In this document: positions 20,044 to 43,136 of the stretch, in pieces
Position numbering within the stretch: the first letter of the stretch is position 1
How the letters are laid out: every line of letters begins with the position of its first letter
From: Verrucomicrobiia bacterium
GTDB taxonomy: Bacteria > Chloroflexota > Dormibacteria > Dormibacterales > Dormibacteraceae
Reading direction: 5' to 3'
DNA: 64,000 nt
Assembly: GCA_035637495.1 (NCBI GenBank)
Contig: DASPXA010000053.1
Span: forward strand, 694 to 64,693
Notes under the pieces: generated by a model
Told to the model about the DNA's origin: nothing
The model's database searches: none
What the model saw: the letters and a program-made list of their open reading frames with translations, nothing else
Position numbers and translations under genes: made by a program

Positions 20044-20076
20044 CCAGTGTGCGTCGATGACGGAGACTTTAGCGAC

Positions 20077-29083: not shown

Positions 29084-29138
29084 AAAAACGTGCCCAGCTT
29101 AATGGTGCCGACCCCGATATGGATCGCTGTTGCCGGCG

Positions 29139-29348
29139 TCAGGTCATCGTGCGGCGGTCACCCACCCTCCTGCGCACTTCCGCGCGCCGCTCTAGCCACC
29201 GCCGCGGTCCACTCCGCCGCTCGACCGACACCGCCACGATTCGCTCGCGCCGGTCGGCCCCGGCGCGTCTGTCCGCCGCGCGGCGGTCACCCTCGCCGCG
29301 CCTGGACCCTTGACGCTGCTCGTCCGCCGTCTCCTCGACCGCTTGCAT
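29139..29348 (-). CDS. candidate small Arg/Glu-rich protein (~69 aa)
   Basis: ATG (comp. 29346-29348) preceded by GAGGAGGAGGGG with a 7-nt spacer. An alternative TTG at 29375 overlaps the CpaF stop (TTGA). Sequence MQAVEETADEQRQGSRRGEGDRRAADRRAGADRRERIVAVSVERRSG... Could be a GC-frame artefact. Confidence 0.3.
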   Translation of the reverse strand: MQAVEETADEQRQGSRRGEGDRRAADRRAGADRRERIVAVSVERRSGPRRWLERRAEVRRRVGDRRTMT

Positions 29349-29371
29349 CTGACGTCCCCTCCTCCTCAGGC

Positions 29372-30502
29372 TCAACTTCTCTGGACTACGCGAACCGGCT
29401 CCGGAAACAGCTCGACGATCTCGGCCGGCATGGGGAGGCCGAGCTCGTCCAGCTTGTCGAGCACGCGGGGGCGGATCCCGGTCGGTGAGAAGCGCCCCAT
29501 GACCCGACCATTGGCATCCATCCCGGTGCGAATGAACTTGAAGACCTCTTGCATCGTGATCACGTCCTCTTCCATCCCCGTCAGCTCGCTGATCTGGGCC
29601 ACCTTGCGCGTTCCGTCGCGCAGCCGCTCGAGATGGACGACGACGTTGATCGCGCTCGTGACCTGGGCGCGGATGGCGCGCACCGGCAGGTCGTAGCCCG
29701 CCATCAAGACGAGCGTCTCGATCCTGGACAGAGCGTCCCGCGGCCTGTTCGCGTGCAAGGTGGTCATCGAGCCGTCGTGACCGGTGTTCATCGCCTGAAG
29801 CATGTCCAGCGCCTCAGGGCCTCTTACCTCGCCGACCACCAGCCGGTCCGGCCGCATGCGCAGTGACGAGATCACCAGGTCGCGGATCGTGATCTCCTTG
29901 CCTTCCGGGCCTCCAGGCCGCGACTCGAGTCGCGCCACATGTCGCTGGCGAAGCTGAAGCTCGGCGGCGTCCTCGATCGTCACGATTCGCTCGTCGGTCG
30001 GGATGTAGCCCGACAGCACGTTCAGCAGCGTGGTCTTGCCGCTGCCCGTGCCGCCGCTGACAACGATGTTGGCCCTCGCCATGACGCACGCCTTGAGGAA
30101 GCCGAAGGCCGAATCGCTGCAGCTGCCGAGGCGGATCAGGTCCGCCATCTCGAGCGGCCCGCGCTGAAAGCGGCGGATGTTGAGCATCGGGCCATCGACC
30201 GCCACGGGCGGTATGGCGACGTGCACGCGGGAGCCGTCGCTCAAGCGGGCGTCGCAGAGGGGCGATGCTGCGTCGACGTGGCGGCCCACCGATTCGACGA
30301 TGTGGTGGATCACCGCCATCAGCTCTTCTGCGCTGGAGAAGCTGATCGGGGTCAGCAGGATCTTGCCGTCGACCTCGACGTAGATGTCGCGCGGGCCGAC
30401 CACCATGATCTCGGTCACCTGCGGGCTGTGCAGCAGCGGGGCGAGCGGCCCAAGCATGGAGTAGTCGGACGGAAGGACAGGCTGCGCTTGTGCTGTGCTC
30501 AT
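29372..30502 (-). CDS. CpaF/TadA-family secretion ATPase (short paralog, ~376 aa)
   Basis: Start MSTAQAQPVLPSDY... Walker A ...VVSGGTGSGKTTLLN..., ...VGEVRGPEALDMLQAMNTGHDGSMTTLHAN... Confidence 0.85.
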   Translation of the reverse strand: MSTAQAQPVLPSDYSMLGPLAPLLHSPQVTEIMVVGPRDIYVEVDGKILLTPISFSSAEELMAVIHHIVESVGRHVDAASPLCDARLSDGSRVHVAIPPVAVDGPMLNIRRFQRGPLEMADLIRLGSCSDSAFGFLKACVMARANIVVSGGTGSGKTTLLNVLSGYIPTDERIVTIEDAAELQLRQRHVARLESRPGGPEGKEITIRDLVISSLRMRPDRLVVGEVRGPEALDMLQAMNTGHDGSMTTLHANRPRDALSRIETLVLMAGYDLPVRAIRAQVTSAINVVVHLERLRDGTRKVAQISELTGMEEDVITMQEVFKFIRTGMDANGRVMGRFSPTGIRPRVLDKLDELGLPMPAEIVELFPEPVRVVQRS

Positions 30503-32556
30503 TGGATCAACCTCACAGCGGACGGAAACGCCCGCAAAGTAGGATCGGCGGTGATCGACACGGCGCCATTGCCGGTGATGGTCGCGGTCCAGGCGATAAC
30601 GCCTCCGGCGATCGTCGCCTGGTACGAGTTGCTGCCGTTGATCTGGACGTTCGCCGCGGGGAAGTAGACGATTCCGATCAGGCTCGTGAAGCCGTTGCCG
30701 TTGATGGTGTTGGAGCATGTGTTGGGCGTGGCGGACTGAATCGGTCCGGGCTCGAAGATCAGCGTCCTGCCGTACTGGTACCCGCTGAACAGGTAGCTGT
30801 CCGCCCCACCGTGAAGGTCGACGCATCCACCGCTGGGTAGGTAGAAAACCACCGCCCCTGGCGTCCATGCCGACGGGCACGCGGTGTTGTTGCCGAGAGT
30901 GGTGGTAACGCAGTGGCCCTCGTTGGCCAGGTCGCCCTGCGGCGGCACCCCCGACGCAGGGTTGGTGTTCGGCAGAGTGCTCGCGAGAGGCAGACGCTGC
31001 GTGTCCGGCGGTGACTGGCCGGAAAGGCAGTTGTTGATGGTCACACTCGAGCTTCCCCCGCTGCCAACGTTCGTGCAGTAGGTCAGTCCCGTGCAGGTGC
31101 TGTTCTGGGCCAGGTAGACGAAGTAGTCCTGCGCGCCGGGGACGCTCGTCACCGACACCCGGATGTTTCCACTGCTCGCCAACGTCACGGTCCTGCACAT
31201 CGAGGGCGCGCTCTCGCGCAGGTAGCACGTCGATGCAACTGGACCACTGCAGGTGGCCACGCCGTTGGGTTCCCACCGCACGGCCGTCACCTCGACCGAG
31301 TACGTGCCCGACGAGAGTCCGCTGGAGCCGAGGGCAGTGAGGCTGAACGAGCTGCCACACCCTACCCCGTTCATGTCCCAGAACTGGTGAAGCGCCCGCG
31401 CCATGGTGACGACGATCGTTCCGCCGGCAAGCGTGCCGCTCACGGCCTGGGCGGCCACTGGAATCGACGTCGCGTTCAGGGCAGCGCCCGCCGAGGTCAC
31501 GGTGAATGCCTGGTCGTTAAGGCGCACGATCGAGTTCGCAGGCACCGCAACCGTGAGGGCGGTCACCGGAATCGACGTGATCGTGCCCATCAGCGCGGCG
31601 GTGGTCGCGGTCAGGTTGGGCTCGTCCGGCGGTCGCAGCTCGTTGCTGGTGAATCCGCCCAACTGGGTGTACCCGGCGGTGAAGTTGTAGACGCCGCCGC
31701 CCAGGAAGTAGCAGCCGGCGCCGCCGCCCAGGTGCGGGTCCGAGTTGTACGTGCCGGCCAGCTCCACGCTGCCGCTCGACGACGCCCACGAACGAGACGT
31801 CGTGTCAATTGGCGGTGTCGGGTATCCCGGATCGGGAGAGTTCAGGCCGTTGACCTGGGCGCCGGTGACCGTCCACTTCGGCGTCGTGAGCGGGTTTGGC
31901 GGCGCCGGGCAGATGTCGATGACGTTGCCATTGACGGTGCCGCCGGCCGAACCGCTCTGCTCGAAGATGTTGCCGTTCGACCAGATGTCGCCGACGACGG
32001 TCGTCGTCGAGTTGCCCTGGAAGATGAGAGAGCTGCCGCCGCTCGGGCAGCCGTAGGGCGCCAGCGTCTGGATGGCTGCGCCGTTCGTGCCGGCCCTGCG
32101 TGCCACCGCGGTTGCGGTGGCGCCGACGTTCATGGCCCCCGCTCCCAGCACTCGCATGATCGTGACCGGGATCTGATGGGCCGCGGTGGCCGTGAACGTC
32201 GTCCCGGCAATCGAACGGTTGGCGACGGTCAGGATCAGCACCTGGTTGCTCGGGTCGCCGAAGGTACACGTGACGTTCGCGGTTCCGTAGCCTGAGCAGG
32301 TCGGTGGGGTGTAGAGTCGCTGGTTGTTCGCGAACTGGGTGGTGGCCGCCTGCTCCGCCAGGATGTAGCTCGTGTTGTTCATGTAGTTGTAGGCCGCAGC
32401 GAGCGCCGCGGCGTCAACCGCCCCCTGCATGCCGCGCCGGTCGAGGTATCCGCGTCCTCCATCCACGGCCAGGCCGAGGAAGCCGAACAGCGCGACCAGG
32501 ATCAGCGCGACGAGAACGATTGCCTGGCCTTTCTGAGCACGAAGACCGGCGGTCAT
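30499..32556 (-). CDS. TadG-like pilus-assembly protein (686 aa), N-terminal TadE/G-like pseudopilin segment plus a large Gly/Thr/Cys-rich extracellular region
   Basis: Start MTAGLRAQKGQAIVLVALILVALFGFLGLAVDGGRGYLDRRGMQGAVDAAALAAA..., a TadE/G-like N-terminal domain. The start overlaps the TadE stop. Confidence 0.8.
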   Translation of the reverse strand: MTAGLRAQKGQAIVLVALILVALFGFLGLAVDGGRGYLDRRGMQGAVDAAALAAAYNYMNNTSYILAEQAATTQFANNQRLYTPPTCSGYGTANVTCTFGDPSNQVLILTVANRSIAGTTFTATAAHQIPVTIMRVLGAGAMNVGATATAVARRAGTNGAAIQTLAPYGCPSGGSSLIFQGNSTTTVVGDIWSNGNIFEQSGSAGGTVNGNVIDICPAPPNPLTTPKWTVTGAQVNGLNSPDPGYPTPPIDTTSRSWASSSGSVELAGTYNSDPHLGGGAGCYFLGGGVYNFTAGYTQLGGFTSNELRPPDEPNLTATTAALMGTITSIPVTALTVAVPANSIVRLNDQAFTVTSAGAALNATSIPVAAQAVSGTLAGGTIVVTMARALHQFWDMNGVGCGSSFSLTALGSSGLSSGTYSVEVTAVRWEPNGVATCSGPVASTCYLRESAPSMCRTVTLASSGNIRVSVTSVPGAQDYFVYLAQNSTCTGLTYCTNVGSGGSSSVTINNCLSGQSPPDTQRLPLASTLPNTNPASGVPPQGDLANEGHCVTTTLGNNTACPSAWTPGAVVFYLPSGGCVDLHGGADSYLFSGYQYGRTLIFEPGPIQSATPNTCSNTINGNGFTSLIGIVYFPAANVQINGSNSYQATIAGGVIAWTATITGNGAVSITADPTLRAFPSAVRLIQ

Positions 32557-33116
32557 CAATACTCCACGGCGTAGGTGGCGGCCGCCGTGATGATGATGTT
32601 GTTGGCCGTGATCTGGCGAATCAGGGGCGTGAAGGGCACGAAGTTGTAGCGGATCGTCACCTGCAGGGGCGCGTGGTTCCTTGCCGGATTGGTGGCGCTG
32701 CATGATCCCGTTGCGTTTCCCCACATCTGGCCGCCGGGCGCGTTCTCGAGGGTTGGCGAAAGCACCTCCACCGTCGAGGGCGGGTTTGGCTCGGTGATGT
32801 AGATCCAGCCCGTGTTGGAAGGCGGCGTGGTGGCGGTGATCGGCCCGTTCGGGCAGGGGTTGGCGAGGACCATGTCCACCGCGTGCTGCCTGACCGCGGC
32901 CTCCACGTCGGCGTTTGTAGGCAGCTGCGCCGAGGAGCGGATGGCGCTCCGCGCACCTTCGTTGACCGCCTGGTTGAGCGTCACGTAGTAGTAGATGACG
33001 CGGCCGAAGTCGACGATCCCGAACAGCAGGAGGAGAAGGACCGGCGCGATGATCGCGAACTCGACGATCGCTTGCGACCGCTGCGCAGCGTCCCGCTGAC
33101 GGATGAACCTGCGCAC
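32556..33116 (-). CDS. TadE-like protein
   Basis: ...QRSQAIVEFAIIAPVLLLLLFGIVDFGRVIYYYVTLNQAVNEGAR..., a TadE N-terminal domain. Confidence 0.8.
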   Translation of the reverse strand: MRRFIRQRDAAQRSQAIVEFAIIAPVLLLLLFGIVDFGRVIYYYVTLNQAVNEGARSAIRSSAQLPTNADVEAAVRQHAVDMVLANPCPNGPITATTPPSNTGWIYITEPNPPSTVEVLSPTLENAPGGQMWGNATGSCSATNPARNHAPLQVTIRYNFVPFTPLIRQITANNIIITAAATYAVEY

Positions 33117-33117
33117 G

Positions 33118-33681
33118 TCAGTAGCCCCCGACCGTCATGTGCGTGTTGGACACCATGTGGATGGAGCTGCCCAGAGCGTCGGCCAGAAAGCCGGATGTGA
33201 ACCCAAAGCTCATGATGAGGATCACGTTCACGTCGATGCCCTTGTAGGCGTTGTCGACGGGCGCTGATGAGAAGTCAGTGCCCGGATCGTTCGCGAAGCA
33301 GATGAAGAGCAGCGGCTGGTTGAGGCTCGATGGATACCACGAGGGGTCGTACGGCGGGTTGTAGAGCGAGTTGCCGTCAGTCGGTGACGGGCACGTCGTG
33401 CCGGGATTCTGCAGGATCGAGGAGGGCAGCCCAGACTTGAGGAGAATCTGGTCGACCGACGCCTGGATGGCCGAGTCGGACAGGTATGGATTGGTCGACG
33501 AGCTGGCGTCGAACCAGGTCGCCTGGCGGGCGCCTTCTCGCGTCGCTCCCGCAATGGCGACCGCGAAGTAGAAGGCACGGCCCAGGTCGACGAGTCCGAA
33601 GACGAGCAGGATGAGCACGATCGCGGAGACACCGAACTCGACGGTCGATTGACCGCGCATGCGGTCGTGTCTTCGCCGCAT
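33118..33681 (-). CDS. TadE-like protein (second paralog)
   Basis: Start MRRRHDRMRGQSTVEFGVSAIVLILLVFGLVDLGRAFYFAVAIAGATREGARQA... Confidence 0.75.
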   Translation of the reverse strand: MRRRHDRMRGQSTVEFGVSAIVLILLVFGLVDLGRAFYFAVAIAGATREGARQATWFDASSSTNPYLSDSAIQASVDQILLKSGLPSSILQNPGTTCPSPTDGNSLYNPPYDPSWYPSSLNQPLLFICFANDPGTDFSSAPVDNAYKGIDVNVILIMSFGFTSGFLADALGSSIHMVSNTHMTVGGY

Positions 33682-33683
33682 GT

Positions 33684-34619
33684 CTATCCAGCCGCCAGGT
33701 ACTTGAGCGCAAGCAGGAGGGCCGGGCCGAGGATGATCACCCACAGCGTCGGGAAGATGCATCCGAGCATCGGGATGAGCATCTTCAGGGAGGCCCGCGC
33801 CCCCTTTTCCTGCGCTGTGAGGAGGTGCTTGGTCCGGATCTCGTCCGACTGGGCGCGCAGGATTCGGGCAACGCCGGAGCCCAGCTGCTCGGACTGGACG
33901 ATCGCCTGGACGAAGTTGTTCAGCTCCTCGACTCCGAGACGCTGGCCCATGTCGCTCAGCGCGTCCAGACGCGGGCGGCCGAGACGCATCTCCTGGATCA
34001 TGCGGCCGAACTCCTCGGCCAGCGCGTGGTCGAACTTCTCGGCCACCCTCTCGATCGAAGCCTCGAAGGTAAGCCCGGCCTCCACGCACACGACCAGGAC
34101 GTCGATCACATCGGGCAGGTCGTTCTGAATGTCGGTCTTGCGGCGCTTGATCCGCCGGCTCAGCCAGAACATGGGACCGTACAGACCAAGGGCGGCGCCG
34201 ATCGCCGCCGCGACCGCAAGCACGATTGGGCTGCCCTTGAGCAAGCCGATCAGGATCCCCAGCGAGCACAGGAATGCGGTCAACACGTAGCGGAACGCCA
34301 CGAAATCAGTCGTCCCCATGCCCCCGGGGCGCCCGGCCAGCTGCAGCTTCAGGAAGAGCTGCTGGCGCGCATTCGCAGGCATGCTCTGCTCGATGAATTT
34401 CCCGATCCGCTTCAGCGCCGGGCGGATGACGCGCTCGCCGAACGGCATCTGGAGCTCTTCCTCCGCAGTCGAAAGCGCCATGCCGGTCTCGTAGATGCGA
34501 AGGCGGCCCTCGACCACGTCCGCGTTGCTCGGCGCGGCCGGCATCAGGCTCCAGATGATTGCGAACATGCCGAATGCGGCCACCGAACCAAGCAGGGTCG
34601 CCACGTACAGGGCTGTCAC
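33684..34619 (-). CDS. TadC (type II secretion system F-family inner-membrane platform protein)
   Basis: 311 aa. GspF/TadC-type TM topology and conserved cytoplasmic domain (...DLPDVIDVLVVCVEAGLTFEASI...). Confidence 0.85.
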   Translation of the reverse strand: MTALYVATLLGSVAAFGMFAIIWSLMPAAPSNADVVEGRLRIYETGMALSTAEEELQMPFGERVIRPALKRIGKFIEQSMPANARQQLFLKLQLAGRPGGMGTTDFVAFRYVLTAFLCSLGILIGLLKGSPIVLAVAAAIGAALGLYGPMFWLSRRIKRRKTDIQNDLPDVIDVLVVCVEAGLTFEASIERVAEKFDHALAEEFGRMIQEMRLGRPRLDALSDMGQRLGVEELNNFVQAIVQSEQLGSGVARILRAQSDEIRTKHLLTAQEKGARASLKMLIPMLGCIFPTLWVIILGPALLLALKYLAAG

Positions 34620-34621
34620 CG

Positions 34622-35563
34622 CTACACCCTGAAAGACGTGATCCGTCTGATGAAGAGGTTGCCGATGAAGATCGAGATGAGGACAAGAACCAGCATCACG
34701 CGGCCCAGCGGCACGTCGAACATGATTCGGAAGTAGCTCGGCGTGATCACGTCGAGGATGCCCGCGACGGCGAACGGAAGCAGAGTGATGATCCAGCCGG
34801 ACGCGCGCATCTGCGCCGTCAGAGCGGAGATCTGGGCCTTCATCTGGACCCGCTGCCGGATGGTGTGCGAGATGCCGTCGAGGATTCGGGCGAGGTTTCC
34901 GCCCACTGTCGACTGGATCGAGATCGCGGTCACGATCAGGTCCAGGTCTTCGCTTCCGACCCGCCTGACCATGTTCGCCATCGCCTGTGGCGTCGGGCTG
35001 CCCAGGTTCATCTCCCGGATCGCCCTGTGGAGCTCATCAGAGACCGGCGGCGACGCGTTGCGGGCGACCGCCTCGACGGCCTGTGGCAAGGAGAGCCCCG
35101 CCTTCAAGGCGTTGGAGAGGAGGCTGAGCGTGTCGGGGAGGCGGCCGTTGAATGCCTTCAGGCGCCGGCCCTGGCGGAACTTGACGTAGCGCATCGGCAG
35201 CAGGTAGGCGCCAACGCCCGCGATCACAAATTGGGGCGCAAAGCCAAATCGCCACAGCCCCAGCAAGACTCCGACGACGAGGAATCCGAGCTGGATCATG
35301 ACGAACTCGGAGGTCCGAAGCCGGATGTCGGCCCGGCCCAGGTGCTCGGCGAGCGTGAGGCCGCCGTTGAGTCGGCGCCTGCGGTTGGAGCGGTCGGCGA
35401 GCGCCTGGAAGGGTTGGTTGATCCGGTCCCGCAGGCTCGCGTTCGGCGCTCCGCCACGGAACGGGTCGGCCAGGTTCCTCTGGGCGACGGGCAGCGCGAT
35501 CGCGCTGCAGGCGAGCAGCACCCCGACGGCCGCAATCGCAGAGATGATGAAGACGGGGCTCAC
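34622..35563 (-). CDS. TadB (type II secretion system F-family platform protein)
   Basis: GTG start ~35563 (VSPVFIISAIAAVGVLLACSAIAL...). ...LPDTLSLLSNALKAGLSLPQAVEAV... The start lies 1 nt after the CpaF stop. Confidence 0.8.
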   Translation of the reverse strand: MSPVFIISAIAAVGVLLACSAIALPVAQRNLADPFRGGAPNASLRDRINQPFQALADRSNRRRRLNGGLTLAEHLGRADIRLRTSEFVMIQLGFLVVGVLLGLWRFGFAPQFVIAGVGAYLLPMRYVKFRQGRRLKAFNGRLPDTLSLLSNALKAGLSLPQAVEAVARNASPPVSDELHRAIREMNLGSPTPQAMANMVRRVGSEDLDLIVTAISIQSTVGGNLARILDGISHTIRQRVQMKAQISALTAQMRASGWIITLLPFAVAGILDVITPSYFRIMFDVPLGRVMLVLVLISIFIGNLFIRRITSFRV

Positions 35564-35564
35564 G

Positions 35565-37007
35565 TCATGCCTCCACCAGCGCGGCGCGCTCGGCCGGCTT
35601 GAAGATCGACTCCGGCAGGGCCTCACCCCGCTCCGCAAGGTGCTCGAGGTGCACCGACCTCTTGCCCGTGGCCGTGTAAAACCCGACGGCGTTGCCTTCA
35701 ACGTCGGTCCCCGTGAGCTGGAAGCGGAAGAGCTCCTGCTGCTGCGTCTCGCCGCTGGTGATGCCTGTCACCTCGGCGATGCTCACGAGCTTGCGGGCTC
35801 CACCGCGCACACGCTCGACCTGGACGATGACATCGATGGCGGACGCGATCTGCTTCTGGATCGCCCGCGCGGGAAGGTCGGCGCCGGCCATCAGAACCAT
35901 CGTCTCGAGCCGGCTGAACGCGTCGTACGGAGAGTTGGCGTGGACCGTGCTCATCGAGCCTTCGTGCCCGGTGTTCATCGCCTGGAGCATGTCTAGAGCC
36001 TCCCCGCCGCGGCACTCGCCGACGATGATCCGGTCGGGCCGCATGCGGAGGGCGTTGCGGACCAGGTCCCGGATCTCGATCGCTCCCTTGCCCTCGACGT
36101 TGGGCGGCCGGGATTCGAGGCGGATGACATGCTCCTGGCGGAGCTGCAGCTCGGCTGCGTCCTCCACCGTCACGATCCGCTCCTCGGGCGGGATGAAGCT
36201 CGAGAGGATGTTGAGCAGCGTGGTCTTGCCGGACGAGGTGCCGCCCGAGACCAGGATCGTCAGGCGGGCGCGCACCGCGGCGCGTAGGAACTGGACCATC
36301 TCTGGCGTCGCGCTGCCGATCGTCAGCAGGTCCTCGGGCCTCATCTTGTCCTTGGAGAACTTGCGGATGGTCATGCAAGGACCGTCGAGTGCAAGCGGCG
36401 GAAGCACCACGTTGACGCGCGAGCCGTCCCGGAGTCGTGCGTCGCACATCGGCGAGCTTTCGTCTACGCGCCGACCGACGGTGCTTACGATCCGGTCGAT
36501 CACCTGCCGCAACTGACCCGCGTTCTCGAAGACGATCGGGCTGAGGCTCACCCGGCCCCGCCGCTCGACGTAGATCTGATGAGGGTGGTTGATCATGATC
36601 TCGGTGATCGCCGGGTCCTCGAGCAGCTGCTGTAGCGGACCAAGGCCCAGCACGTCGTCAAGCAGCGAGTCGACCAGGTGTCCGTAATCGAGGCGGTTGA
36701 GAGTCGCGCCTGACGTCCGGATGTAATCGTCGGTAAGGATTTCGATGCGCTTGCGTACGCCCGGACGGTCCGTGATGTCGACCTCGTCAGCGTGCATTTC
36801 AATGAGCTGCGTGTAGATGGCCGTCTTCGCGGCCGCGAAGGCCGGCGACGGTCCTGCCGGCTTGCTCACGGCCGGCTTTGGTGCGGGAACCGGCTCGGCC
36901 ACGGGCTCGGGGCGAGTGCCTTCGAGCACGCTGAGGCCGCCCTCATCCAGCTGCCTGCCGTCACCCTGCTTGCGGGCCTGGAGCCTGTCTTTTAGTGCCA
37001 TAGCCAC
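35565..37007 (-). CDS. CpaF/TadA-family secretion ATPase (long paralog, 480 aa)
   Basis: ...ILVSGGTSSGKTTLLN..., ...IVGECRGGEALDMLQAMNTGHEGSMSTVHAN... Pro/Ala-rich N-terminal extension. Confidence 0.9.
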   Translation of the reverse strand: MAMALKDRLQARKQGDGRQLDEGGLSVLEGTRPEPVAEPVPAPKPAVSKPAGPSPAFAAAKTAIYTQLIEMHADEVDITDRPGVRKRIEILTDDYIRTSGATLNRLDYGHLVDSLLDDVLGLGPLQQLLEDPAITEIMINHPHQIYVERRGRVSLSPIVFENAGQLRQVIDRIVSTVGRRVDESSPMCDARLRDGSRVNVVLPPLALDGPCMTIRKFSKDKMRPEDLLTIGSATPEMVQFLRAAVRARLTILVSGGTSSGKTTLLNILSSFIPPEERIVTVEDAAELQLRQEHVIRLESRPPNVEGKGAIEIRDLVRNALRMRPDRIIVGECRGGEALDMLQAMNTGHEGSMSTVHANSPYDAFSRLETMVLMAGADLPARAIQKQIASAIDVIVQVERVRGGARKLVSIAEVTGITSGETQQQELFRFQLTGTDVEGNAVGFYTATGKRSVHLEHLAERGEALPESIFKPAERAALVEA

Positions 37008-37870
37008 CGCGCATCGCGCCTAACCATCAGATTGCCCAGGCGGCGGAGCGACCGCCTCGCCACCCTGCGCACGCGCAGGTCTGGGTCCTGGAGGAGCATC
37101 TCGATCTGGTCGAACGACGACTCGGCGTGCAGCACGGTCAGCGATTTGATCGCCGAGATCCGCACCCGCCAGTCGCGGTCGTACAGGGCCGTGCTCACCG
37201 CGGGGATCGCCGACGCGGCGTTGATCCAGCCGAGCGCTCGGCAGCAGATCACGCGCTGGCGATGCGTGCCTGAGCCGAGAAGCGCAACGAGCGGACCGAT
37301 CGCGGTGCGACGGCGGCGGAGCCCGGCCGCGATCGCGACCGCGCCCAGCGCTCCGGGACGCCGGTCGCTGCACAGAGCGGTCTCGACAAAAAGGTCCGGG
37401 GCCGCCTGGGCGAGGGCGAGGATGAACACGCGGCGCGGTCCGCTGCGCTGCACGGCCCCAAGCAGCGCATCCGCGGCCTGCGTCCCGCCGATCCTGCCCA
37501 GCGCCCTTGCCGCCGATCCGGAAACTCGAGCGTCTTTGGCGCGCAGAAGTGGCGTCAGCCACGGCACGACGCTCTCCATTCGCAGAGAGCCGGCCGTCCG
37601 GCAGCAGCGGATGCGGCGGTCCACGTTGCGTGCGGACAGGCCGTCGATCACCGCGTTCATCGAGCCGTTCTTGTGGAAGGCGGTCACCAACCGCCGCAGC
37701 TCGATGCTGGTCATCTTCATGCGTGCGGTTGCCTGCGCCAGCACGAGCGCAGCGTCGAACCCAGTGGCGTCGAGGTCGAAATGAAGGCGCGTGCCGTGAC
37801 CCGCCGCAATCTCGTGCAGCTCACGCTTCAGCGCGTTGCGCCGAATGCTTCCCCGCGCGTGGTCGATCAT
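36992..37870 (-). CDS. HEAT-repeat (PBS-lyase type) protein
   Basis: 292 aa. Repeated ...AARALGRIGGTQAADALL... and ...VRISAIKSL... HEAT-like units. Overlaps the CpaF start (16 nt) and the CpaE stop (4 nt). Confidence 0.7.
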   Translation of the reverse strand: MIDHARGSIRRNALKRELHEIAAGHGTRLHFDLDATGFDAALVLAQATARMKMTSIELRRLVTAFHKNGSMNAVIDGLSARNVDRRIRCCRTAGSLRMESVVPWLTPLLRAKDARVSGSAARALGRIGGTQAADALLGAVQRSGPRRVFILALAQAAPDLFVETALCSDRRPGALGAVAIAAGLRRRRTAIGPLVALLGSGTHRQRVICCRALGWINAASAIPAVSTALYDRDWRVRISAIKSLTVLHAESSFDQIEMLLQDPDLRVRRVARRSLRRLGNLMVRRDARWLWH

Positions 37871-39282
37871 GTCGTGCTCGCGTCGGCATGCTTCGCCACG
37901 CCAACCACGCTCCGGTTGTGGACGCGGTCGATCAGGGCCGCCAGTGCGTTCGACCCCCTTGTGACCTCGCTCTTAGGATCGGTCACGCTGAGGATCGCGC
38001 CGTCCAGCGCAGCCTGCTCCGGCTTGATGCCGTCGAACGCCACTTCGACGTCGACGGCACGCTTCAGCTTTCGAAGGACTGCGTCGCGAGTCACGGCCGG
38101 CTTCGCGGTTCGGTTGTTGAGCACCACGCTGAGCCGGTCGTCCGGCGTGCCGATCTGGAGCAGGATGTCAATCGCGTCGGCGGCGCTCTTGAGCGCAGAG
38201 AGCTCGGGTGCGACGACCAGGACCATGTGCTGGGTGAGGTCGAGCAGGGCCAGGGTCGAGTCCGAGATCGTGACCCCGAGGTCGACGACGATGTACCGAA
38301 ACGTCCTGCGGAGCACGCTGATCGCCCGGTTGATCAGCTCCGGCGTGACCTCATCGCCCTCCTCGGGCTTGAGCGCGCCGGGAAGGATCATGGGCCCACC
38401 CGAGTGATAGAGGACGGCGCTGAGCAGGACCTCCTCGAACGCATCTGCCGGCACCTCCGACATCCGCGCCAGGCACGTCGTCGGGATCAAGCCCGCCAGC
38501 AACGCGGCGTGGGAGTACGGAAAGTCGAGGTCGAGGAGCAGGACCTGACCGGGGTATGCACGCGAGAGCGAACCGACCAGGTTGAGGGCGATGCACGTAC
38601 CGCCAGATCCGCCCTTGGGCGAGTAGACACCGACGACGGTCGCCTCGCGAAGCAGCATTCCCCACGTCGCCTGCGTCGCCGTGTCCGCGAAAGCCTTGAA
38701 GCGGTGGTCCGCGACCTTTCGGAGCTCCTCCAGCGCCGCGCGGTCCCTTCCCCCGAGAACGGCGGCGAGGTTCTGGCGGTCGAGCGCGAGCAGGATGCAC
38801 TCGGTCTGGGCGTACACCGACGCCTGCTGCGGCCTGTTCAGCACGCAGGCCGCGTCGCCGAAGAAGTCGCCCTCCGACAGCACGGCCACGGTGACCTCGG
38901 TCGGAGGCTTCTCGACCACGAGCCGGCACCGGCCGCGCTCGATGAAGAAGATGGTGTCGCCAGGCTCGCCCTGGTAGAGAACCATCTCGCCCGCGCCGAT
39001 GCGGATCCGGCGCACCCGCCTGGCGACGGAGCGAAGCGTGCTCTCCGACAGGGTGAAGAAGACCGGGGCGCGCTGCAGCACGGCGAGCCTGGCCACCATG
39101 TCCTCATACGAAGGCCAGCCGTTGTCGGGCCGCCTCTGCAGCACGGGCTCACGGAGTACCGGCCCGGCCGATGCGAGCACGGGCCGTCCCGGCTCCGGCA
39201 CCGGTACCTCCTCGCCGTGCACCTGCGGCCTCATGAAAGCCTCCCCTGCCATCTGGTCGATCAGGCCCTCGTGAATCCCCAT
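37867..39282 (-). CDS. fusion of a cyclic-nucleotide-binding (CAP effector-type) domain with a CpaE/TadZ-like ParA/MinD-family ATPase
   Basis: N-terminal ...IRIGAGEMVLYQGEPGDTIFFIERGRCRLVV...LSEGDFFGDAACVLNRPQQASVYAQTECILLAL..., a cNMP-binding beta-barrel. C-terminal ...VGVYSPKGGSGGTCIALNLVGSL..., a deviant Walker A of CpaE/TadZ. The true start may be an internal M (39252, 39234 or 39099). Confidence 0.8.
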   Translation of the reverse strand: MGIHEGLIDQMAGEAFMRPQVHGEEVPVPEPGRPVLASAGPVLREPVLQRRPDNGWPSYEDMVARLAVLQRAPVFFTLSESTLRSVARRVRRIRIGAGEMVLYQGEPGDTIFFIERGRCRLVVEKPPTEVTVAVLSEGDFFGDAACVLNRPQQASVYAQTECILLALDRQNLAAVLGGRDRAALEELRKVADHRFKAFADTATQATWGMLLREATVVGVYSPKGGSGGTCIALNLVGSLSRAYPGQVLLLDLDFPYSHAALLAGLIPTTCLARMSEVPADAFEEVLLSAVLYHSGGPMILPGALKPEEGDEVTPELINRAISVLRRTFRYIVVDLGVTISDSTLALLDLTQHMVLVVAPELSALKSAADAIDILLQIGTPDDRLSVVLNNRTAKPAVTRDAVLRKLKRAVDVEVAFDGIKPEQAALDGAILSVTDPKSEVTRGSNALAALIDRVHNRSVVGVAKHADASTT

Positions 39283-40076
39283 CGGACATCGACCAGGGCC
39301 GCCCCGATCGCGATCGGCGCCTCCAGGGTTGAAGGGCAGGTCGGATCGGGCGCTGTGACCGGCGCTCCGTAGTCCTTCTGCGAGATCAGCGCGTACTTAA
39401 CGGTCCCCACCGTGAGCAGCCAGTTGAGGTACTGGGCGTCGCACAGGGTGAGCAGCACCGTGACGCTCGAAGACACGCCCTGCGGCTGGCCCTGCTTCGG
39501 CAGAGTCGAGGCCGGACCGACCCTGATGATGTAGACGTGGGTGAACACGGTGCGGGTCACAAACCCGTCGTACTGCTTGCCGAACAGGTTCTTATTGAGC
39601 GTCGCGATGATGTCCAGGTAATCGCCCTGCGCGGGGTAACCGGCAACGCCCATTTGCTCGCTGGTCGGCAGGCTCATGGCGAGGTATCCCTTGGGAATCG
39701 GCAGGAACGCGTCGACCAGCCCGGTGATGTCGTCAGGGTTGGAGGTGACCAGGTTGCGAGTGATCACCTCCCCCTTGTAGATGGGCACCACCGAGTGGTA
39801 GCCCTTGAGGTCGGCCACGGTCACGAACCCGATCGCGGCCATGGAGGACGGCCCCCAACCCATCGTGATCATGCTGTCGCTGATCGCCTGTCGGGGGTCG
39901 ATGTCTTGTGTGGTGACGACGAGGCGAGCCTGTCCCGCGTTCCCGACGCCGCGGCTGAAGATCAGCCCGAATGCGAACATGGCGAGAAACGCGAGCAGCG
40001 CAAGCGCGACGCCAAGGACGAACAGGGGGGTCCGGATCGTCGTGTTGCCGGGCCGCGCTTGACCGATAGCTGCCAT
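39261..40076 (-). CDS. CpaB/RcpC-family Flp pilus assembly protein
   Basis: Start MAAIGQARPGNTTIRTPLFVLGVALALLAFLAMF..., an N-terminal TM followed by a SAF-like periplasmic domain. Confidence 0.8.
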   Translation of the reverse strand: MAAIGQARPGNTTIRTPLFVLGVALALLAFLAMFAFGLIFSRGVGNAGQARLVVTTQDIDPRQAISDSMITMGWGPSSMAAIGFVTVADLKGYHSVVPIYKGEVITRNLVTSNPDDITGLVDAFLPIPKGYLAMSLPTSEQMGVAGYPAQGDYLDIIATLNKNLFGKQYDGFVTRTVFTHVYIIRVGPASTLPKQGQPQGVSSSVTVLLTLCDAQYLNWLLTVGTVKYALISQKDYGAPVTAPDPTCPSTLEAPIAIGAALVDVRWGFTRA

Positions 40077-40080
40077 TAGT

Positions 40081-40641
40081 TCAGGCCTCCTTAAGTTGAC
40101 GTCTGACGGAAGCCACCCAGCGGGTTCCGTCCCAGTACTCGCCCGGCTCCGTGGGAGGCTCGGGCCCCATCGCAAAGTAGGTGACACGCCTCAGCACGAG
40201 GCATCCGGCGAAAAGGTCATGGAGCGCTTGCTTTCTCGGCGTGAAGGCGGTGAGCAGATAGCCCGTCCCGAGCAGCAGGCTCGACAAGAGCTTCAGCGAG
40301 TACCTCGCGCTCGCTCGGTAGAAGGTGATCGGATCGCCTTGCAGGTCGGCGACGAACAGGTTGAGCGCGAGCTTGCCCAGCGTTCCACGCGCCGGCGAGC
40401 TCTCCATCAGCGCGAAGTAGGCCCACGCGATCAGAGAGGAGACAGGCGCGATGTTCACGACAGTCTTGATGTCGCCGTCGGAGGCCGCGACCACGATGGC
40501 GGTGATCGCCCCCTGCACGCCGACAATGACGACCAGGTCGATCAGGTAGGCAAGGACCCGCCGCCAGAATCCCGCGTACCTGATCTCGGTCTTCCGGACG
40601 GGCGTGGCAAACGGCGCCGAGGGTGCCTGGATCACGGGCAC
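40081..40641 (-). CDS. RDD-family membrane protein
   Basis: GTG start. ...YAGFWRRVLAYLIDLVVIV... RDD motif. 3 TM helices. Confidence 0.8.
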   Translation of the reverse strand: MPVIQAPSAPFATPVRKTEIRYAGFWRRVLAYLIDLVVIVGVQGAITAIVVAASDGDIKTVVNIAPVSSLIAWAYFALMESSPARGTLGKLALNLFVADLQGDPITFYRASARYSLKLLSSLLLGTGYLLTAFTPRKQALHDLFAGCLVLRRVTYFAMGPEPPTEPGEYWDGTRWVASVRRQLKEA

Positions 40642-40861
40642 ACCCGAAATCGATCTTGAGTTGAGTCACGAAGCGCGGGACTGTGCAGGTGCGGCCCTCC
40701 TTCCCTCCCGTGGGGTGATTGAGCCACCTTAGGAACGGCGCTTAATGCCCACAAGGTGACATTCGTCCCCGCGGTTTAGCGGCGCGGACGCGACCTAGGA
40801 CGGATGACCCATTACCTATGCCGCCCGGGTCCTTAAGGCGCGGGCGCTCAGTGGATTAAGG

Positions 40862-40894
40862 GGCTTGAAAAGGAAGGGGCGGCCTCACCGCCCC
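40862..40894 (-). terminator. Rho-independent terminator of the flotillin gene
   Basis: Minus strand: GGGGCGG-UGAGG-CCGCCCC followed by UUCCUUUUCAAG. The stop codon lies in the loop. Confidence 0.7.
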
Positions 40895-42849
40895 TCCTCC
40901 TGCGCTTCGGCGCTGTGGCCGTTGGCATTCAGGTTCCGCATGAACGTGGCGGCCAGCCCCTCGAGGGCGCTCCCGCCCCCGGTCACCAGCACCTCCGGCA
41001 TGACGTCGAGCTTGCCCTCCGACAGGGCGTTGGCGATCGCCACCGCCGCCGTCGGCGTCGAGCCGAGGCTTGCGACCTGGGCCTGGTAACCCTTCGCCTT
41101 GGCGAGGCCGAACGCCTCGACGGCCGCCGCTTCCCCAAGGCCGATCGCCCGCCGGCGCGAGCCCTCCGCCTCGCCGGTGACACGGACGTAGGCCGCTTCG
41201 CCGTCCGCCTCCGCCTTGCGGGCGTTGGCGCCGGCGCGGTTGATGTCCACCGACACCTGGGCCTTGGCCAGCTCCGCCTGCATGTCGGCGGTGCCGCGTG
41301 CCTTCTCGAGGTCGATGCGAACCGTCTGCGCGTCCTTCTGCTCCTCGAAGGTGGCCTTCTCCTGGTTCGCGATCTCGCGCCGCGTGAGCACGGCCACGAG
41401 CTCCTGCGGGAACGTCACGTCCTGGATGTAAACGCCGCGCGTCTCGACCTCGTACGCGCCGAGGTAGCGTGAGATGGCCTCCAGCGCGGCGGCCTGCACC
41501 TGGTCGCGCGTCTCGATGAAGCGAACGGCCTCCAGGCCCTGCAGCGTGTTGCGGAAGTGGTTGCCCACCGCCGCCTGCAGCACCTCGTTGACCAGGTTTT
41601 GCATCGAGCCGACCATCGAGATGACCTTCGGCGCCTTGGTGTCGGGCACGTGGATCTGGACCTGCAGGTCGATCTTGAAGATGAACCCTTCGCGGCTCTT
41701 GCCCTCGATCGGGCTCAGCTGTGCGTCCAGGTTGTGCGCGACCGAGTTCGCCTCCGCCCAGTTCAGGGTGAGGATGAACGTCGGCACCTTCTCGGCCGCA
41801 TAGATCCGCGGGTTCAGCGGGTACTTGCCGGTGCGCAGCGCCTCTCGCCAGATCCCGCGGTGGCCTGGCTGCACGATCGAGCCGAACTTGAACTCGGGAC
41901 CCGACGTGTCGAGCGTGGGCAGGCCGACGTAGGCCTTGATCACCGCGACCTCGCCCTGGTTCACGACCAGCATCGGCGCCGGCTCGACTCGAACCAGGAA
42001 CGGGTTCAGAAGGTAGGCGCCGTAAAGCAGCGGGTCGTGCTGCAGGCCGATCCGTCCGCCCCTGTCGAGGAAGGCCTGGAAGTCCTGGTAGTTGTTGTGC
42101 AGCTCGTTCTTCTTGCCCAGCAGGGCCTCGATCAGCTCCGAGTCCGAGATGTTCGGCTGCGACTCCATCGCCTCTATGTCGCTGAAGCCCCCGATCCGGC
42201 ATGCGATGTCTGCGGGGCCGAGTGGCTCGCCCTCGAGGGTGGTCACGATGCCGACTACGTCCTTATCGCCGTTGGGCGCGATCACGGTCACCCGGAACTG
42301 GTCTGGGCTCAGCCCGAACGAAGCAGGTGACAGCGGGCCCTTGGCCACGAGCTGACGGTCGACGGGCAGGCCGTACGCCTTGGTCGCCGTGACCACGAGG
42401 AAGGCGACCGGGTGGATCGGCGCAAGCGTGCCTGGCGGCAGCACTGGACGCTGGACGCCCTTCCGGCCCTTGCCGGCCACGAACGCATCGAGGTCGGTGA
42501 AGCCGCCGAACTCAGACCGGTACGCCGCCGACTTGGCGCCGGTCGGAAGCGGCTCGCCGATCTGCGAGATGACGACACCGATCTCTCCCGCCGGGACCTG
42601 GACCCACGGGTAGCGCATCACAACGTACGTCGGCCAGAGCTTGAAGCGCACACCGGGCATGAGCAGCTCGGCCTGGTAGCCGGCTTCGCCCGAGAATGCG
42701 ATGGGCGTGTCGGTGGTGTTGTGACTGCGCGACAGCCGCTTCACGACCAGTCCGATCTCGGCCGGGCCGATCACCACGATCGAGCGCCAGATGACATACA
42801 TTGCGAGCGCAGCCGAAAACACGAGGAGGGACTGCAGCAGAACACTCAT
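40885..42849 (-). CDS. flotillin-like SPFH/Band-7 domain protein
   Basis: 654 aa. N-terminal TM, SPFH domain, flotillin-type coiled-coil/EA-rich C-terminus. Confidence 0.85.
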   Translation of the reverse strand: MSVLLQSLLVFSAALAMYVIWRSIVVIGPAEIGLVVKRLSRSHNTTDTPIAFSGEAGYQAELLMPGVRFKLWPTYVVMRYPWVQVPAGEIGVVISQIGEPLPTGAKSAAYRSEFGGFTDLDAFVAGKGRKGVQRPVLPPGTLAPIHPVAFLVVTATKAYGLPVDRQLVAKGPLSPASFGLSPDQFRVTVIAPNGDKDVVGIVTTLEGEPLGPADIACRIGGFSDIEAMESQPNISDSELIEALLGKKNELHNNYQDFQAFLDRGGRIGLQHDPLLYGAYLLNPFLVRVEPAPMLVVNQGEVAVIKAYVGLPTLDTSGPEFKFGSIVQPGHRGIWREALRTGKYPLNPRIYAAEKVPTFILTLNWAEANSVAHNLDAQLSPIEGKSREGFIFKIDLQVQIHVPDTKAPKVISMVGSMQNLVNEVLQAAVGNHFRNTLQGLEAVRFIETRDQVQAAALEAISRYLGAYEVETRGVYIQDVTFPQELVAVLTRREIANQEKATFEEQKDAQTVRIDLEKARGTADMQAELAKAQVSVDINRAGANARKAEADGEAAYVRVTGEAEGSRRRAIGLGEAAAVEAFGLAKAKGYQAQVASLGSTPTAAVAIANALSEGKLDVMPEVLVTGGGSALEGLAATFMRNLNANGHSAEAQEEGR

Positions 42850-43136
42850 TTGTGCCTGCCTCCGAGGGCGCGAACCTTGCCCTTGATCTAGGCTCGCCCC
42901 AACTGCGGGCGATTAAAGAATTACTTACCCAGTTCAGCCCAAAACATGCGCAAGGTTTCGCTTTTTTTTGGTTGATCTTGCGATTGGAAACCCACGAACA
43001 ATTCCACGCACGCGCAGAAGTTAGGCTTGCCAACGGTTTCCTAATTCTTACAAGCGACGCTGCGGATTCCGATTGAAGATCCGGACGAGCTGTCTGGGCA
43101 AGTTTTCTGGCGTGCCTCGCGAATCTTGCGGTGAGC

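What the first reader, a model, noticed from the sequence alone, without database searches (positions are those of the whole stretch)
37867..39282. Cyclic-nucleotide-binding domain fused to the CpaE/TadZ pilus-localisation ATPase
CpaE/TadZ proteins normally carry an N-terminal atypical receiver-like domain. Here the ParA/MinD-type ATPase module (KGGSGGT deviant Walker A) is preceded by a full CAP/PKA-type cNMP-binding beta-barrel (...GEPGDTIFFIERGRCRLVV...LSEGDFFGDAACVLNRPQQASV...). The phosphate-binding-cassette Arg is kept (NRPQQ), but the Gly-Glu of FGE is Gly-Asp and the usual Ala/Thr-Ala after the Arg are Pro-Gln-Gln. The ligand may therefore not be plain cAMP. This suggests direct second-messenger gating (cAMP, cGMP or another nucleotide) of where and when the secretion apparatus assembles.
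Basis: partly seen in the sequence, partly recalled or inferred. Interest (0 to 1): 0.7.

Follow-up and report, generated by a model that had tools for sequence, protein, structure and literature searches.

The report
Cyclic-nucleotide-type sensor fused to pilus ATPase
A soil bacterium's Tad pilus operon encodes its TadZ/CpaE scaffold ATPase with a cyclic-nucleotide-binding-type domain where the usual receiver-like domain sits; the fusion is real and conserved, but a key cAMP-contacting arginine is missing, so the ligand is unknown.

Summary
ORF 37867..39282(-) encodes a PF00027 cNMP-binding domain (E 4e-18), a long helix, then a MinD/ParA-fold ATPase with the TadZ-type Walker A KGGSGGT. The likely start is 39234 (455 aa), still upstream of the sensor domain.

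The gene sits in a monoderm-type Tad operon: RDD, RcpC/CpaB, this gene, a HEAT protein, CpaF, TadB, TadC, TadE, TadE, TadG, a second CpaF. That order recurs in all 80 related soil-metagenome loci, probably from Candidatus Dormiibacterota.

Alignments to PKA and PKG put the canonical phosphate-binding Arg opposite Gln136; Arg134 lies two residues upstream. The family motif is FGE..A....R-x-Q-Q-A-S.

This cassette is the most conserved part of the sensor domain within the family. It is not conserved among other Tad-linked lineages. In the few loci sampled, canonical FGE…PRSAT versions turned up outside Tad loci.

Some relatives carry PAS-GGDEF(-EAL) or receiver domains in front of the same cassette.

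Best reading: a TadZ/CpaE equivalent with a remodelled sensor domain in place of the atypical receiver domain. Plain cAMP gating is unlikely, and the ligand is unknown. I found no description of it in the literature searched. It is a new variant of a known kind.

The parts
37867..39234 (-). CNB-TadZ gene, probable 455-aa product (an alternative upstream ATG at 39282 gives 471 aa). Residue numbers below count from the ATG at 39234.
   Evidence: SD GGGGAGG lies at 39246-39240. The 97%-identical homologue P0001 is 455 aa.
38755..39108 (-). Cyclic-nucleotide-binding-fold domain (residues ~43-160): N-terminal helices plus the beta-barrel.
38818..38862 (-). Non-canonical phosphate-binding cassette, F125-G-D-A-A-C-V-L-N-R134-P-Q136-Q137-A-S139. 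The canonical Arg position is Gln136.
   Evidence: Alignment register. R-x-Q-Q-A-S is found in 105 of 110 family members. It is the lowest-entropy segment of the CNB domain (0.53 bits).
38647..38742 (-). Long C-helix/linker (residues 165-196) joining the sensor domain to the ATPase. It contains the invariant Q188-A-T-W-G192.
   Evidence: Helix 165-193 in the model, with lower pLDDT (~64) at residues 181-200. Invariant columns.
37915..38646 (-). MinD/ParA-fold ATPase module of TadZ/CpaE type (residues 197-440).
38596..38616 (-). Walker-A-like motif K207-G-G-S-G-G-T213. The signature Lys is kept; the P-loop Lys is replaced by Gly.
   Evidence: KGGSGGT[CS] in essentially all family members. It fits the TadZ consensus K/RGGXGXS/T quoted in bioRxiv 10.64898/2026.07.08.737194.
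39261..40187 (-). RcpC/CpaB gene directly upstream.
   Evidence: PF16976, E 4.8e-9; TIGR03177, E 2.9e-18. Found upstream of the fusion in 81 of 91 loci that match it.
40081..40641 (-). RDD-family membrane protein, first conserved gene of the operon.
   Evidence: PF06271, E 6e-22. Present in 66 of 91 loci.
36992..37870 (-). HEAT-repeat protein. Its start overlaps the TadZ stop (ATGA at 37870-37867), which suggests translational coupling. It is a conserved partner gene.
   Evidence: PF13646, E 6e-25. Overlap read. Present downstream of the fusion in 79 of 91 loci, and in the remote lineages P0124, P0129, P0139 and P0275.
35565..37007 (-). CpaF/TadA motor ATPase.
   Evidence: PF00437, E 6e-67; TIGR03819, E 1e-101.
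33684..35701 (-). TadB (34622-35701) and TadC (33684-34619) platform proteins.
   Evidence: PF00482 in both.
30499..33700 (-). Minor-pilin-like genes: TadE-like (~33118-33700), TadE (32556-33116), TadG-like (30499-32724, start uncertain).
   Evidence: PF07811 and PF13400. The TadE-like N-terminus was read.
29372..30508 (-). Second, shorter CpaF-like ATPase that closes the operon.
   Evidence: PF00437, E 1e-58. Conserved at the same place in L004, L005 and L007.

Best explanation
This is the TadZ/CpaE-equivalent scaffold ATPase of a monoderm-type Tad (Flp) pilus machine in an uncultured soil bacterium, probably Candidatus Dormiibacterota. In it the usual N-terminal atypical receiver domain is replaced by a cyclic-nucleotide-binding-fold (CNB) domain.

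Shown here: the two-domain architecture, the TadZ-type Walker A that lacks the P-loop lysine, the fixed operon position between RcpC and a HEAT protein plus CpaF, and a remodelled phosphate-binding cassette (R-x-Q-Q-A-S, Gln at the canonical Arg position) that is nevertheless the best-conserved part of the sensor domain.

Inferred: the ATPase half is an ATP-binding dimerisation scaffold rather than a fast hydrolase. By analogy with Caulobacter CpaE, it would form a ring of dimers around the CpaF hexamer. The CNB domain still occupies its pocket with something, most likely a small molecule other than classically bound cAMP/cGMP. It would pass that state through the long C-helix to the geometry of the ATPase dimer or ring, and possibly to the co-conserved HEAT partner. 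That would set whether the CpaF motor is engaged, and so when the pilus is assembled.
For: Architecture.

TadZ identity:
- Walker A fits K/RGGXGXS/T.
- The ATPase-only profile hits 3ea0 at 2.7e-33, 16 orders of magnitude better than MinD or FleN.
- The two plasmid hits inspected (top-ranked H1, and H15) are the CpaE-position genes of Paraburkholderia and Azospirillum tad loci.
- IMG names many members 'Flp pilus assembly CpaE family ATPase'.
- The rcpC-tadZABC order is the one reported for Chloroflexota.

Operon: the order recurs in all 80 metagenome loci as far as each contig reaches and in L004-L007.

A functional pocket: mean entropy is 0.53 in the PBC, against 0.71-0.95 in the rest of the CNB domain and 0.56 in the ATPase. 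Gly126, Ala129, Arg134, Gln136, Gln137 and Ala138 are invariant in the 20-sequence alignment (Ser139 in at least 90%), and position 127 is Glu or Asp in 109 of 110 members.

Altered ligand: the canonical Arg aligns with Gln136.

The cassette as a signalling module: relatives have PAS-GGDEF(-EAL) or a canonical receiver domain in front of the same CNB-ATPase cassette. One tad-linked lineage has GGDEF and CRP genes just upstream of RcpC.

CpaE ring model: PMC13170226.
Against: No ligand binding was or can be tested here. The model gives no side-chain coordinates, so I could not check whether Arg134 reaches the pocket.

Across other tad-linked lineages (P0124, P0129, P0133, P0139) the cassette is not conserved, and even the Glu of FGE varies. 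This favours a ligand-free structural role for the clade as a whole.

Within-family conservation of the PBC is measured among sequences at least 65% identical, so it is weak evidence.

The C-terminal tail is the most variable segment, so the membrane-targeting amphipathic helix of CpaE is not evident. The relative orientation of the two domains in the model is uncertain (pTM 0.63).
Confidence: 0.5

Rival explanations
1. The CNB domain is a ligand-free pseudo-sensor. It would be a structural, dimerisation or partner-binding module, functionally equivalent to the degenerate receiver domain of ordinary TadZ/CpaE. It would mediate contacts between TadZ dimers or with the HEAT protein, and sense no metabolite.
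For: The canonical PBC Arg is absent. Among five further tad-linked lineages only one (P0134) has an Arg at that position, and the cassette differs in each. In PAS-GGDEF-CNB-ATPase relatives the cassette is even more degenerate. The domain it replaces is itself a degenerate signalling fold used for protein contacts. The HEAT gene is always co-conserved and appears translationally coupled.
Against: Within the family the cassette is the most conserved stretch of the domain, and it keeps Gly, Glu/Asp, Ala and Ala-Ser, the residues that hold ribose and phosphate in real binders. A conserved pocket could also be a protein interface, so this does not exclude the rival.
Confidence: 0.3
2. One reading: the domain binds cAMP or cGMP in the classical way, and the second messenger directly gates the location or timing of Tad assembly.
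For: There is a strong PF00027 match and a PKA/PKG-like fold. G-E/D, Ala129 and Ala-Ser are kept. Unlike trypanosomatid PKAR, the Ala is not replaced by Glu, so there is room for a phosphate. A nearby Arg134 might compensate. In one lineage a class III cyclase-domain gene lies convergent to the end of the operon (L004 and L005).
Against: Gln replaces the phosphate-contacting Arg. In PKA this Arg neutralises and hydrogen-bonds the cyclic phosphate, and its replacement by polar residues accompanies loss of cAMP response in trypanosomatid PKAR (PMC10959531). Canonical FGE…PRSAT versions of the same fusion exist, but those sampled are outside tad loci. No cyclase is present among the window ORFs scanned, and cyclase adjacency is not conserved.
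Confidence: 0.15
3. The protein is not a Tad component. It would be a general MinD/ParA-like positioning ATPase with a sensor domain that merely lies in the operon.
Against: It holds an invariant position between RcpC and HEAT-CpaF in every one of about 85 loci, with overlapping or tightly spaced genes. No other TadZ candidate is found in the operon. The Walker A is the TadZ type, not the MinD/ParA KGGxGK[ST].
Confidence: 0.05

Closest known systems
TadZ/CpaE of Tad (Flp, type IVc) pilus systems: A. actinomycetemcomitans TadZ, C. crescentus CpaE, E. rectale TadZ (PDB 3fkq)
   Same: It has a ParA/MinD-fold ATPase module with the Walker-A-like K/RGGxGx[ST]. The gene lies between rcpC/cpaB and tadA/cpaF. 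It aligns at 26% identity over 224 residues with an Azospirillum CpaE-position protein.
   Different: The N-terminal atypical receiver domain is replaced by a CNB-fold domain plus a roughly 30-residue helix. A HEAT-repeat gene is inserted between it and cpaF. No conserved C-terminal amphipathic tail is evident. Curated CpaE models score below their cutoffs.
PDB 3ea0, 'ParA family ATPase' of Chlorobium tepidum
   Different: It is a 245-residue chain with no sensor domain. From memory only, it is a TadZ-type domain; I did not check its genomic context here.
Classical cNMP-binding domains (PKA RI-alpha CNB-B, PKG CNB-B, MloK1, SthK, CRP)
   Same: The fold matches, including the helical cap. The cassette has the same length, with Gly-Glu/Asp, Ala and Ala-Ser in register.
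   Different: The phosphate-binding Arg is Gln. There is an invariant Arg two residues earlier and a second invariant Gln.
Trypanosomatid PKA regulatory subunits (nucleoside-binding CNB domains; PMC10959531)
   Same: They are a precedent for a CNB domain whose cassette Arg became polar and whose ligand is no longer cAMP. They also appear among the structural and sequence matches.
   Different: Those proteins also change the cassette Ala to Glu, which clashes with a phosphate. The window protein keeps the Ala (A129), so a phosphate-bearing ligand is not excluded.
FleN/FlhG and MinD (ParA/MinD ATPases that position flagella or the division septum)
   Same: Same fold, and a likely ATP-dependent dimer acting as a regulator of a larger machine.
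   Different: They have the full deviant Walker A with both lysines, and they are not in tad operons. Sequence similarity is much lower than to 3ea0.

Membership tests
TadZ/CpaE (Tad pilus ParA/MinD-family component) | ParA/MinD-fold nucleotide-binding domain | tested here: met
TadZ/CpaE (Tad pilus ParA/MinD-family component) | Walker-A-like motif K/RGGxGx[ST] (consensus as quoted in bioRxiv 10.64898/2026.07.08.737194) | tested here: met
   K207-GGSGG-T213, present in essentially all 120 family members.
TadZ/CpaE (Tad pilus ParA/MinD-family component) | Encoded in a tad operon next to rcpC/cpaB and upstream of tadA/cpaF, tadB and tadC | tested here: met
   The order RcpC, this gene, HEAT, CpaF, TadB, TadC is seen in the window and in about 85 related loci. 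One extra gene (HEAT) intervenes.
TadZ/CpaE (Tad pilus ParA/MinD-family component) | N-terminal atypical receiver (REC-like) domain | tested here: not met
   The N-terminus is a CNB domain (PF00027, E 4e-18) with no Response_reg signal. For contrast, the Azospirillum CpaE shows a weak Response_reg match.
TadZ/CpaE (Tad pilus ParA/MinD-family component) | Match to a curated family model above its cutoff (TIGR03815 CpaE_hom_Actino) | tested here: not met
   30.8 bits against a cutoff of 154.45. IMG's own COG-based name 'Flp pilus assembly CpaE family ATPase' is attached to many members.
TadZ/CpaE (Tad pilus ParA/MinD-family component) | C-terminal amphipathic helix for membrane association (as described for CpaE in PMC13170226) | tested here: inconclusive
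   Residues 441-455 are the most variable segment (entropy 2.98). No conserved tail was seen, but I did not analyse helix amphipathicity formally.
TadZ/CpaE (Tad pilus ParA/MinD-family component) | Required for pilus assembly or localisation; binds the CpaF/TadA motor | not testable with these tools
   Needs genetics, microscopy or interaction assays.
Cyclic-nucleotide-binding domain (PF00027) as a fold family | HMM match above the gathering score, and an eight-stranded barrel with helical cap | tested here: met
   65.5 bits against 27.5. TM 0.82-0.87 to the PKA and PKG CNB-B domains.
Functional cAMP/cGMP receptors | Phosphate-binding cassette Gly-Glu (ribose 2'-OH contact) | tested here: met
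   Gly-Asp in the window protein, Gly-Glu in 99 of 110 relatives.
Functional cAMP/cGMP receptors | Phosphate-binding cassette Arg in P-R-[ST/A]-A-[ST] | tested here: not met
   It aligns with Gln136. R-x-Q-Q-A-S is found in 105 of 110 relatives.
Functional cAMP/cGMP receptors | Measured binding of cAMP or cGMP | not testable with these tools
   Needs ITC, DRaCALA or DSF on purified protein.
MinD/ParA proper | Deviant Walker A with both lysines, KGGxGK[ST] | tested here: not met
   The second Lys is Gly212. The MinD models TIGR01969 and TIGR01968 score far below their cutoffs.

The most novel reading that the evidence does not exclude
The remodelled pocket (Arg134-x-Gln136-Gln137) binds a messenger or metabolite other than classically bound cAMP or cGMP. 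Cyclic di-GMP is an attractive candidate, because relatives fuse the same cassette to PAS-GGDEF(-EAL) and one tad-linked lineage has a GGDEF gene in the operon. Binding would directly switch the TadZ ring around the CpaF motor. That would be the first small-molecule sensor built into the Tad scaffold ATPase itself, and a new ligand class for the CNB fold in bacteria.
Probability: 0.3. Interest if true: 0.75.

Novelty: new variant of a known kind. Interest (0 to 1): 0.5.

Why it matters
TadZ/CpaE is the least understood core part of Tad pilus machines. Its N-terminal domain is thought to mediate localisation and contacts within the ring around the motor. The lineage here comes from an abundant, uncultured soil phylum, and it has swapped that domain for a sensor fold and paired it with a dedicated HEAT protein. 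That gives a concrete, testable route by which a small molecule could act post-translationally on pilus assembly. It would add to the known transcriptional (cAMP-CRP/Vfr) and motor-level (c-di-GMP) controls of type IV pili. The non-canonical cassette is also a candidate for new ligand specificity in the CNB fold. If the domain proves ligand-free, it is a second example, after the atypical receiver, of TadZ using a degenerate signalling fold as a scaffold.

Tried and rejected
1. A first structure prediction with 20 close homologues gave pLDDT 59 and I did not use it. A 65-sequence alignment gave 85.9.

2. The genome-contig scan with the single protein returned only one true relative, a Dormiibacterota MAG cut at the contig end, plus two unrelated CNB proteins.

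With A3 it returned only the close family. A systematic survey of remote fusions was therefore not possible, and their contexts rest on 12 single look-ups.

4. Regex searches for a Flp pilin found none in the window. The small ORFs seen in related loci were not pilins.

5. The promoter and terminator scan of the operon was uninformative.

7. The TadZ structure paper (PMC3272108) is not held. What I say about ATP-dependent dimerisation comes from its summary in PMC13170226, and low ATPase activity from memory.

8. The AlphaFold database was unavailable for fold search, so I obtained no named organisms for remote fusions.

9. Literature searches combining CpaE/TadZ/ParA-like with cyclic-nucleotide terms, and Dormibacterota with Tad and pili, found nothing describing this fusion.

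10. I considered a downstream internal start that would express only the ATPase. I rejected it because the CNB region is as conserved as the ATPase.
Full report
**What is in the sequence**

The ORF at 37867..39282 on the minus strand is real (471 aa). Its third-position GC is 0.88, typical of genes in this 67% GC window.

Pfam finds one significant domain, cNMP_binding PF00027, at residues 94-176 (E 4.3e-18, 65.5 bits against a cutoff of 27.5). ParA/AAA_31 matches over residues 215-379 are weak. NCBIfam gives only sub-threshold matches: archaeal MinD 3.4e-14 and the actinobacterial CpaE homologue TIGR03815 1.5e-7.

The start is probably the ATG at 39234. It follows GGGGAGG (39246-39240) with a 5-nt spacer and lies 26 nt after the cpaB stop. 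The ATG at 39282 would overlap cpaB by 22 nt. The 97%-identical homologue P0001 is 455 aa, and the aligned relatives share no conserved sequence upstream of that Met. All numbering below is from this Met. The sensor domain is included with either start.

**Structure**

A 20-sequence alignment gave a poor model (pLDDT 59). A 65-sequence alignment that included remote fusions gave pLDDT 85.9. The model has these parts:
- a disordered N-terminus (residues 1-40);
- a CNB domain (43-160);
- a long helix (165-193);
- an alpha/beta ATPase domain (199-440);
- a variable tail.

**Is the ATPase half TadZ/CpaE?**

Five lines of evidence say yes.

1. The Walker A is K207-GGSGG-T213. It fits the TadZ consensus K/RGGXGXS/T (bioRxiv 10.64898/2026.07.08.737194). 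It lacks the second lysine of the MinD/ParA motif KGGxGK[ST].
2. An ATPase-only profile hits 3ea0 (KGGDGGS) at 2.7e-33. MinD and FleN come next at about 1e-17.
3. tblastn of the ATPase half against 72,556 plasmids found 40 matching records. I inspected two, the top-ranked H1 and H15. Each is the 'AAA family ATPase' gene directly upstream of cpaF in a classical Paraburkholderia or Azospirillum tad locus.
4. The Azospirillum protein aligns at 26% identity over the ATPase only. It has a weak Response_reg N-terminus, the expected atypical receiver.
5. Position: on the minus strand the order is SPFH, RDD, RcpC/CpaB, this gene, HEAT protein, CpaF, TadB, TadC, TadE-like, TadE, TadG-like, second CpaF-like ATPase.

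No secretin was found among the locus ORFs scanned, as expected for a monoderm lineage. rcpC-tadZABC is the order reported for Chloroflexota.

Against strict membership:
- no curated CpaE model passes its cutoff;
- the defining receiver-like domain is absent.

**Conservation and distribution**

More than 400 homologues were found, and all 120 listed carry PF00027 (lengths 411-499 aa). Sources name some of them Candidatus Dormibacteraeota or 'Chloroflexi bacterium' MAGs, and IMG often names them 'Flp pilus assembly CpaE family ATPase'.

Eighty soil-metagenome loci at 65-100% identity all show RDD, RcpC, fusion, HEAT, CpaF, TadB, TadC, TadE, TadE, TadG as far as each contig reaches. Two of them are identical to the window protein over the part matched. 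The stop of the fusion overlaps the HEAT start (ATGA).

A scan of 1.84 billion representative proteins shows dozens of clusters below 50% identity that match residues ~45-436 in a single stretch. The fusion is therefore old and diverse. Twelve context look-ups gave the following.

| Context | Lineages |
|---|---|
| RcpC, fusion, HEAT | window family, P0124, P0129, P0133/P0275, P0139 |
| Next to TadE, TadG and Flp genes | P0134 |
| Not in a tad locus | P0126, P0137, P0161, P0201, P0287 |

**The binding cassette**

phmmer alignments to PKA and PKG consistently pair F-G-D-A-A-C-V-L-N-R-P-Q-Q-A-S with F-G-E-x-A-L-x-x-x-x-P-R-S/T-A-T, with no gaps. The canonical phosphate-contacting Arg therefore corresponds to Gln136. 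Arg134 lies two residues upstream.

In 110 family members the tail is R-x-Q-Q-A-S in 105. The first motif is FGE in 99 and FGD in 10, the window among them.

Within the family the cassette has the lowest entropy of the CNB domain: 0.53, against 0.71-0.95 elsewhere in the domain and 0.56 for the ATPase. This argues for a used pocket or interface.

Across other tad-linked lineages the cassette is different each time: DQPAAET, GEPSPAS, DDPYQVS, EKPQPAT. Only P0134 has an Arg in place.

Fully canonical FGEmaL-LTGePRSAt cassettes occur in the remote members P0193, P0201 and others. The two sampled (P0201, and P0287 from the P0193 cluster) are outside tad loci. The sample is small. The trend is that the tad-recruited branch gave up the classical cassette.

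There is a precedent for Arg loss accompanying a ligand switch. Trypanosomatid PKA regulatory subunits bind nucleosides: there Arg became polar and the cassette Ala became Glu (PMC10959531). The window protein keeps the Ala (A129), so a phosphate-bearing ligand is not excluded.

**Signalling connections**

Relatives at 31-39% identity put other signalling domains in front of the same CNB-ATPase cassette:
- PAS-PAS-GGDEF-EAL (P0141);
- PAS-PAS-GGDEF (P0144);
- PAS-GGDEF (P0151, P0167);
- a canonical receiver domain (P0147).

The P0129 tad locus has GGDEF and CRP-type genes just upstream of RcpC. In L004 and L005 a class III cyclase-AAA_16-TPR gene lies convergent to the end of the operon. That gene is not at the same place in L007 or in the window.

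No cyclase is encoded among the window ORFs scanned.

**Mechanism: shown and inferred**

Shown: the architecture, the operon position, the TadZ-type nucleotide site without the P-loop Lys, the conserved but non-canonical cassette, and the conserved HEAT partner gene.

Inferred from Caulobacter CpaE: in that system six dimers ring the CpaF hexamer, the receiver domains probably mediate contacts between dimers, and the ring moves when the machine is piliated (PMC13170226). By analogy, the ATPase half here would be an ATP-dependent dimer scaffold around CpaF. The CNB domain and its C-helix would take over the role of the receiver domain. They would add either ligand control or simply a new contact surface, possibly for the HEAT protein.

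My probability estimates:
- about 0.5 that the pocket binds a small molecule by a non-classical mode or of a non-classical kind;
- about 0.3 that it is ligand-free;
- about 0.15 for classical cAMP or cGMP.

**Novelty**

Automatic annotations already record both domains: 'cyclic nucleotide-binding domain-containing protein' and 'MinD-like ATPase/CRP-like cAMP-binding protein'. Full-text searches found no paper describing a CNB-TadZ/CpaE fusion. Recent Tad papers describe TadZ only with, or lacking, the receiver domain. I rate it a new variant of a known kind, of moderate interest.

Noticed in passing
window 36992-37870 (-): A 292-aa HEAT-repeat protein is inserted between TadZ and CpaF. Its start overlaps the TadZ stop (ATGA). 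It accompanies the CNB-TadZ gene in the close family and in four remote lineages. The two classical tad loci inspected (Paraburkholderia, Azospirillum) have no such gene.
   Followed up: partly
window 29372-30508 (-): A second, shorter CpaF/TadA-like ATPase (378 aa, PF00437) closes the operon after TadG. The same arrangement is seen in L004, L005 and L007. It may be a dedicated retraction or accessory motor.
   Followed up: partly
P0141, P0144, P0151, P0167, P0147 (from; domains): Relatives of the CNB-ATPase cassette carry PAS-GGDEF-EAL, PAS-GGDEF or a canonical receiver domain at the N-terminus, all with degenerate cassettes. I could not fetch their genomic context.
   Followed up: partly
L004 and L005 20022-21386 (-): A large gene with Guanylate_cyc (class III cyclase), AAA_16 and TPR domains lies convergent to the end of the tad operon in one lineage. 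It is not at that place in the window or in L007.
   Followed up: partly
L008 10001-12541: Two tandem genes each encode a canonical-cassette CNB domain fused to a ParA-like ATPase. They lie next to a LysM/glucosaminidase gene and the secE-nusG-rplK cluster, with no tad genes nearby. This looks like a separate, possibly truly cNMP-regulated, branch of the fusion.
   Followed up: no
window 26918-29083 (-): A 721-aa protein with a C-terminal sortase domain lies just downstream of the tad operon. A sortase gene also lies near the P0124 tad locus (L010).
   Followed up: no
window 26900-43200: No Flp pilin gene was found in or beside the operon by motif searches, and no prepilin peptidase or secretin among the ORFs scanned with Pfam. 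The pilin may be encoded elsewhere or be too divergent for the patterns used.
   Followed up: partly
window 40081-42849 (-): An RDD-family membrane protein, conserved as the first gene of the operon in 66 of 91 loci, is preceded by a 654-aa SPFH/Band-7 protein.
   Followed up: partly
window 1597-22338: A purine and pyrimidine salvage or catabolism neighbourhood: two xanthine-dehydrogenase-type molybdoenzymes, an adenine deaminase, several amidohydrolases, and xanthine/uracil and cytosine/purine permeases. The long ORFs 18373-21297(-) and 19720-22338(+) overlap, so their real starts are shorter.
   Followed up: no
window 43137-44219 (-) and 52625-53488 (+): A WGR plus DUF4253 protein and a PPK2 polyphosphate kinase. 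Both appear unrelated to the finding.
   Followed up: no
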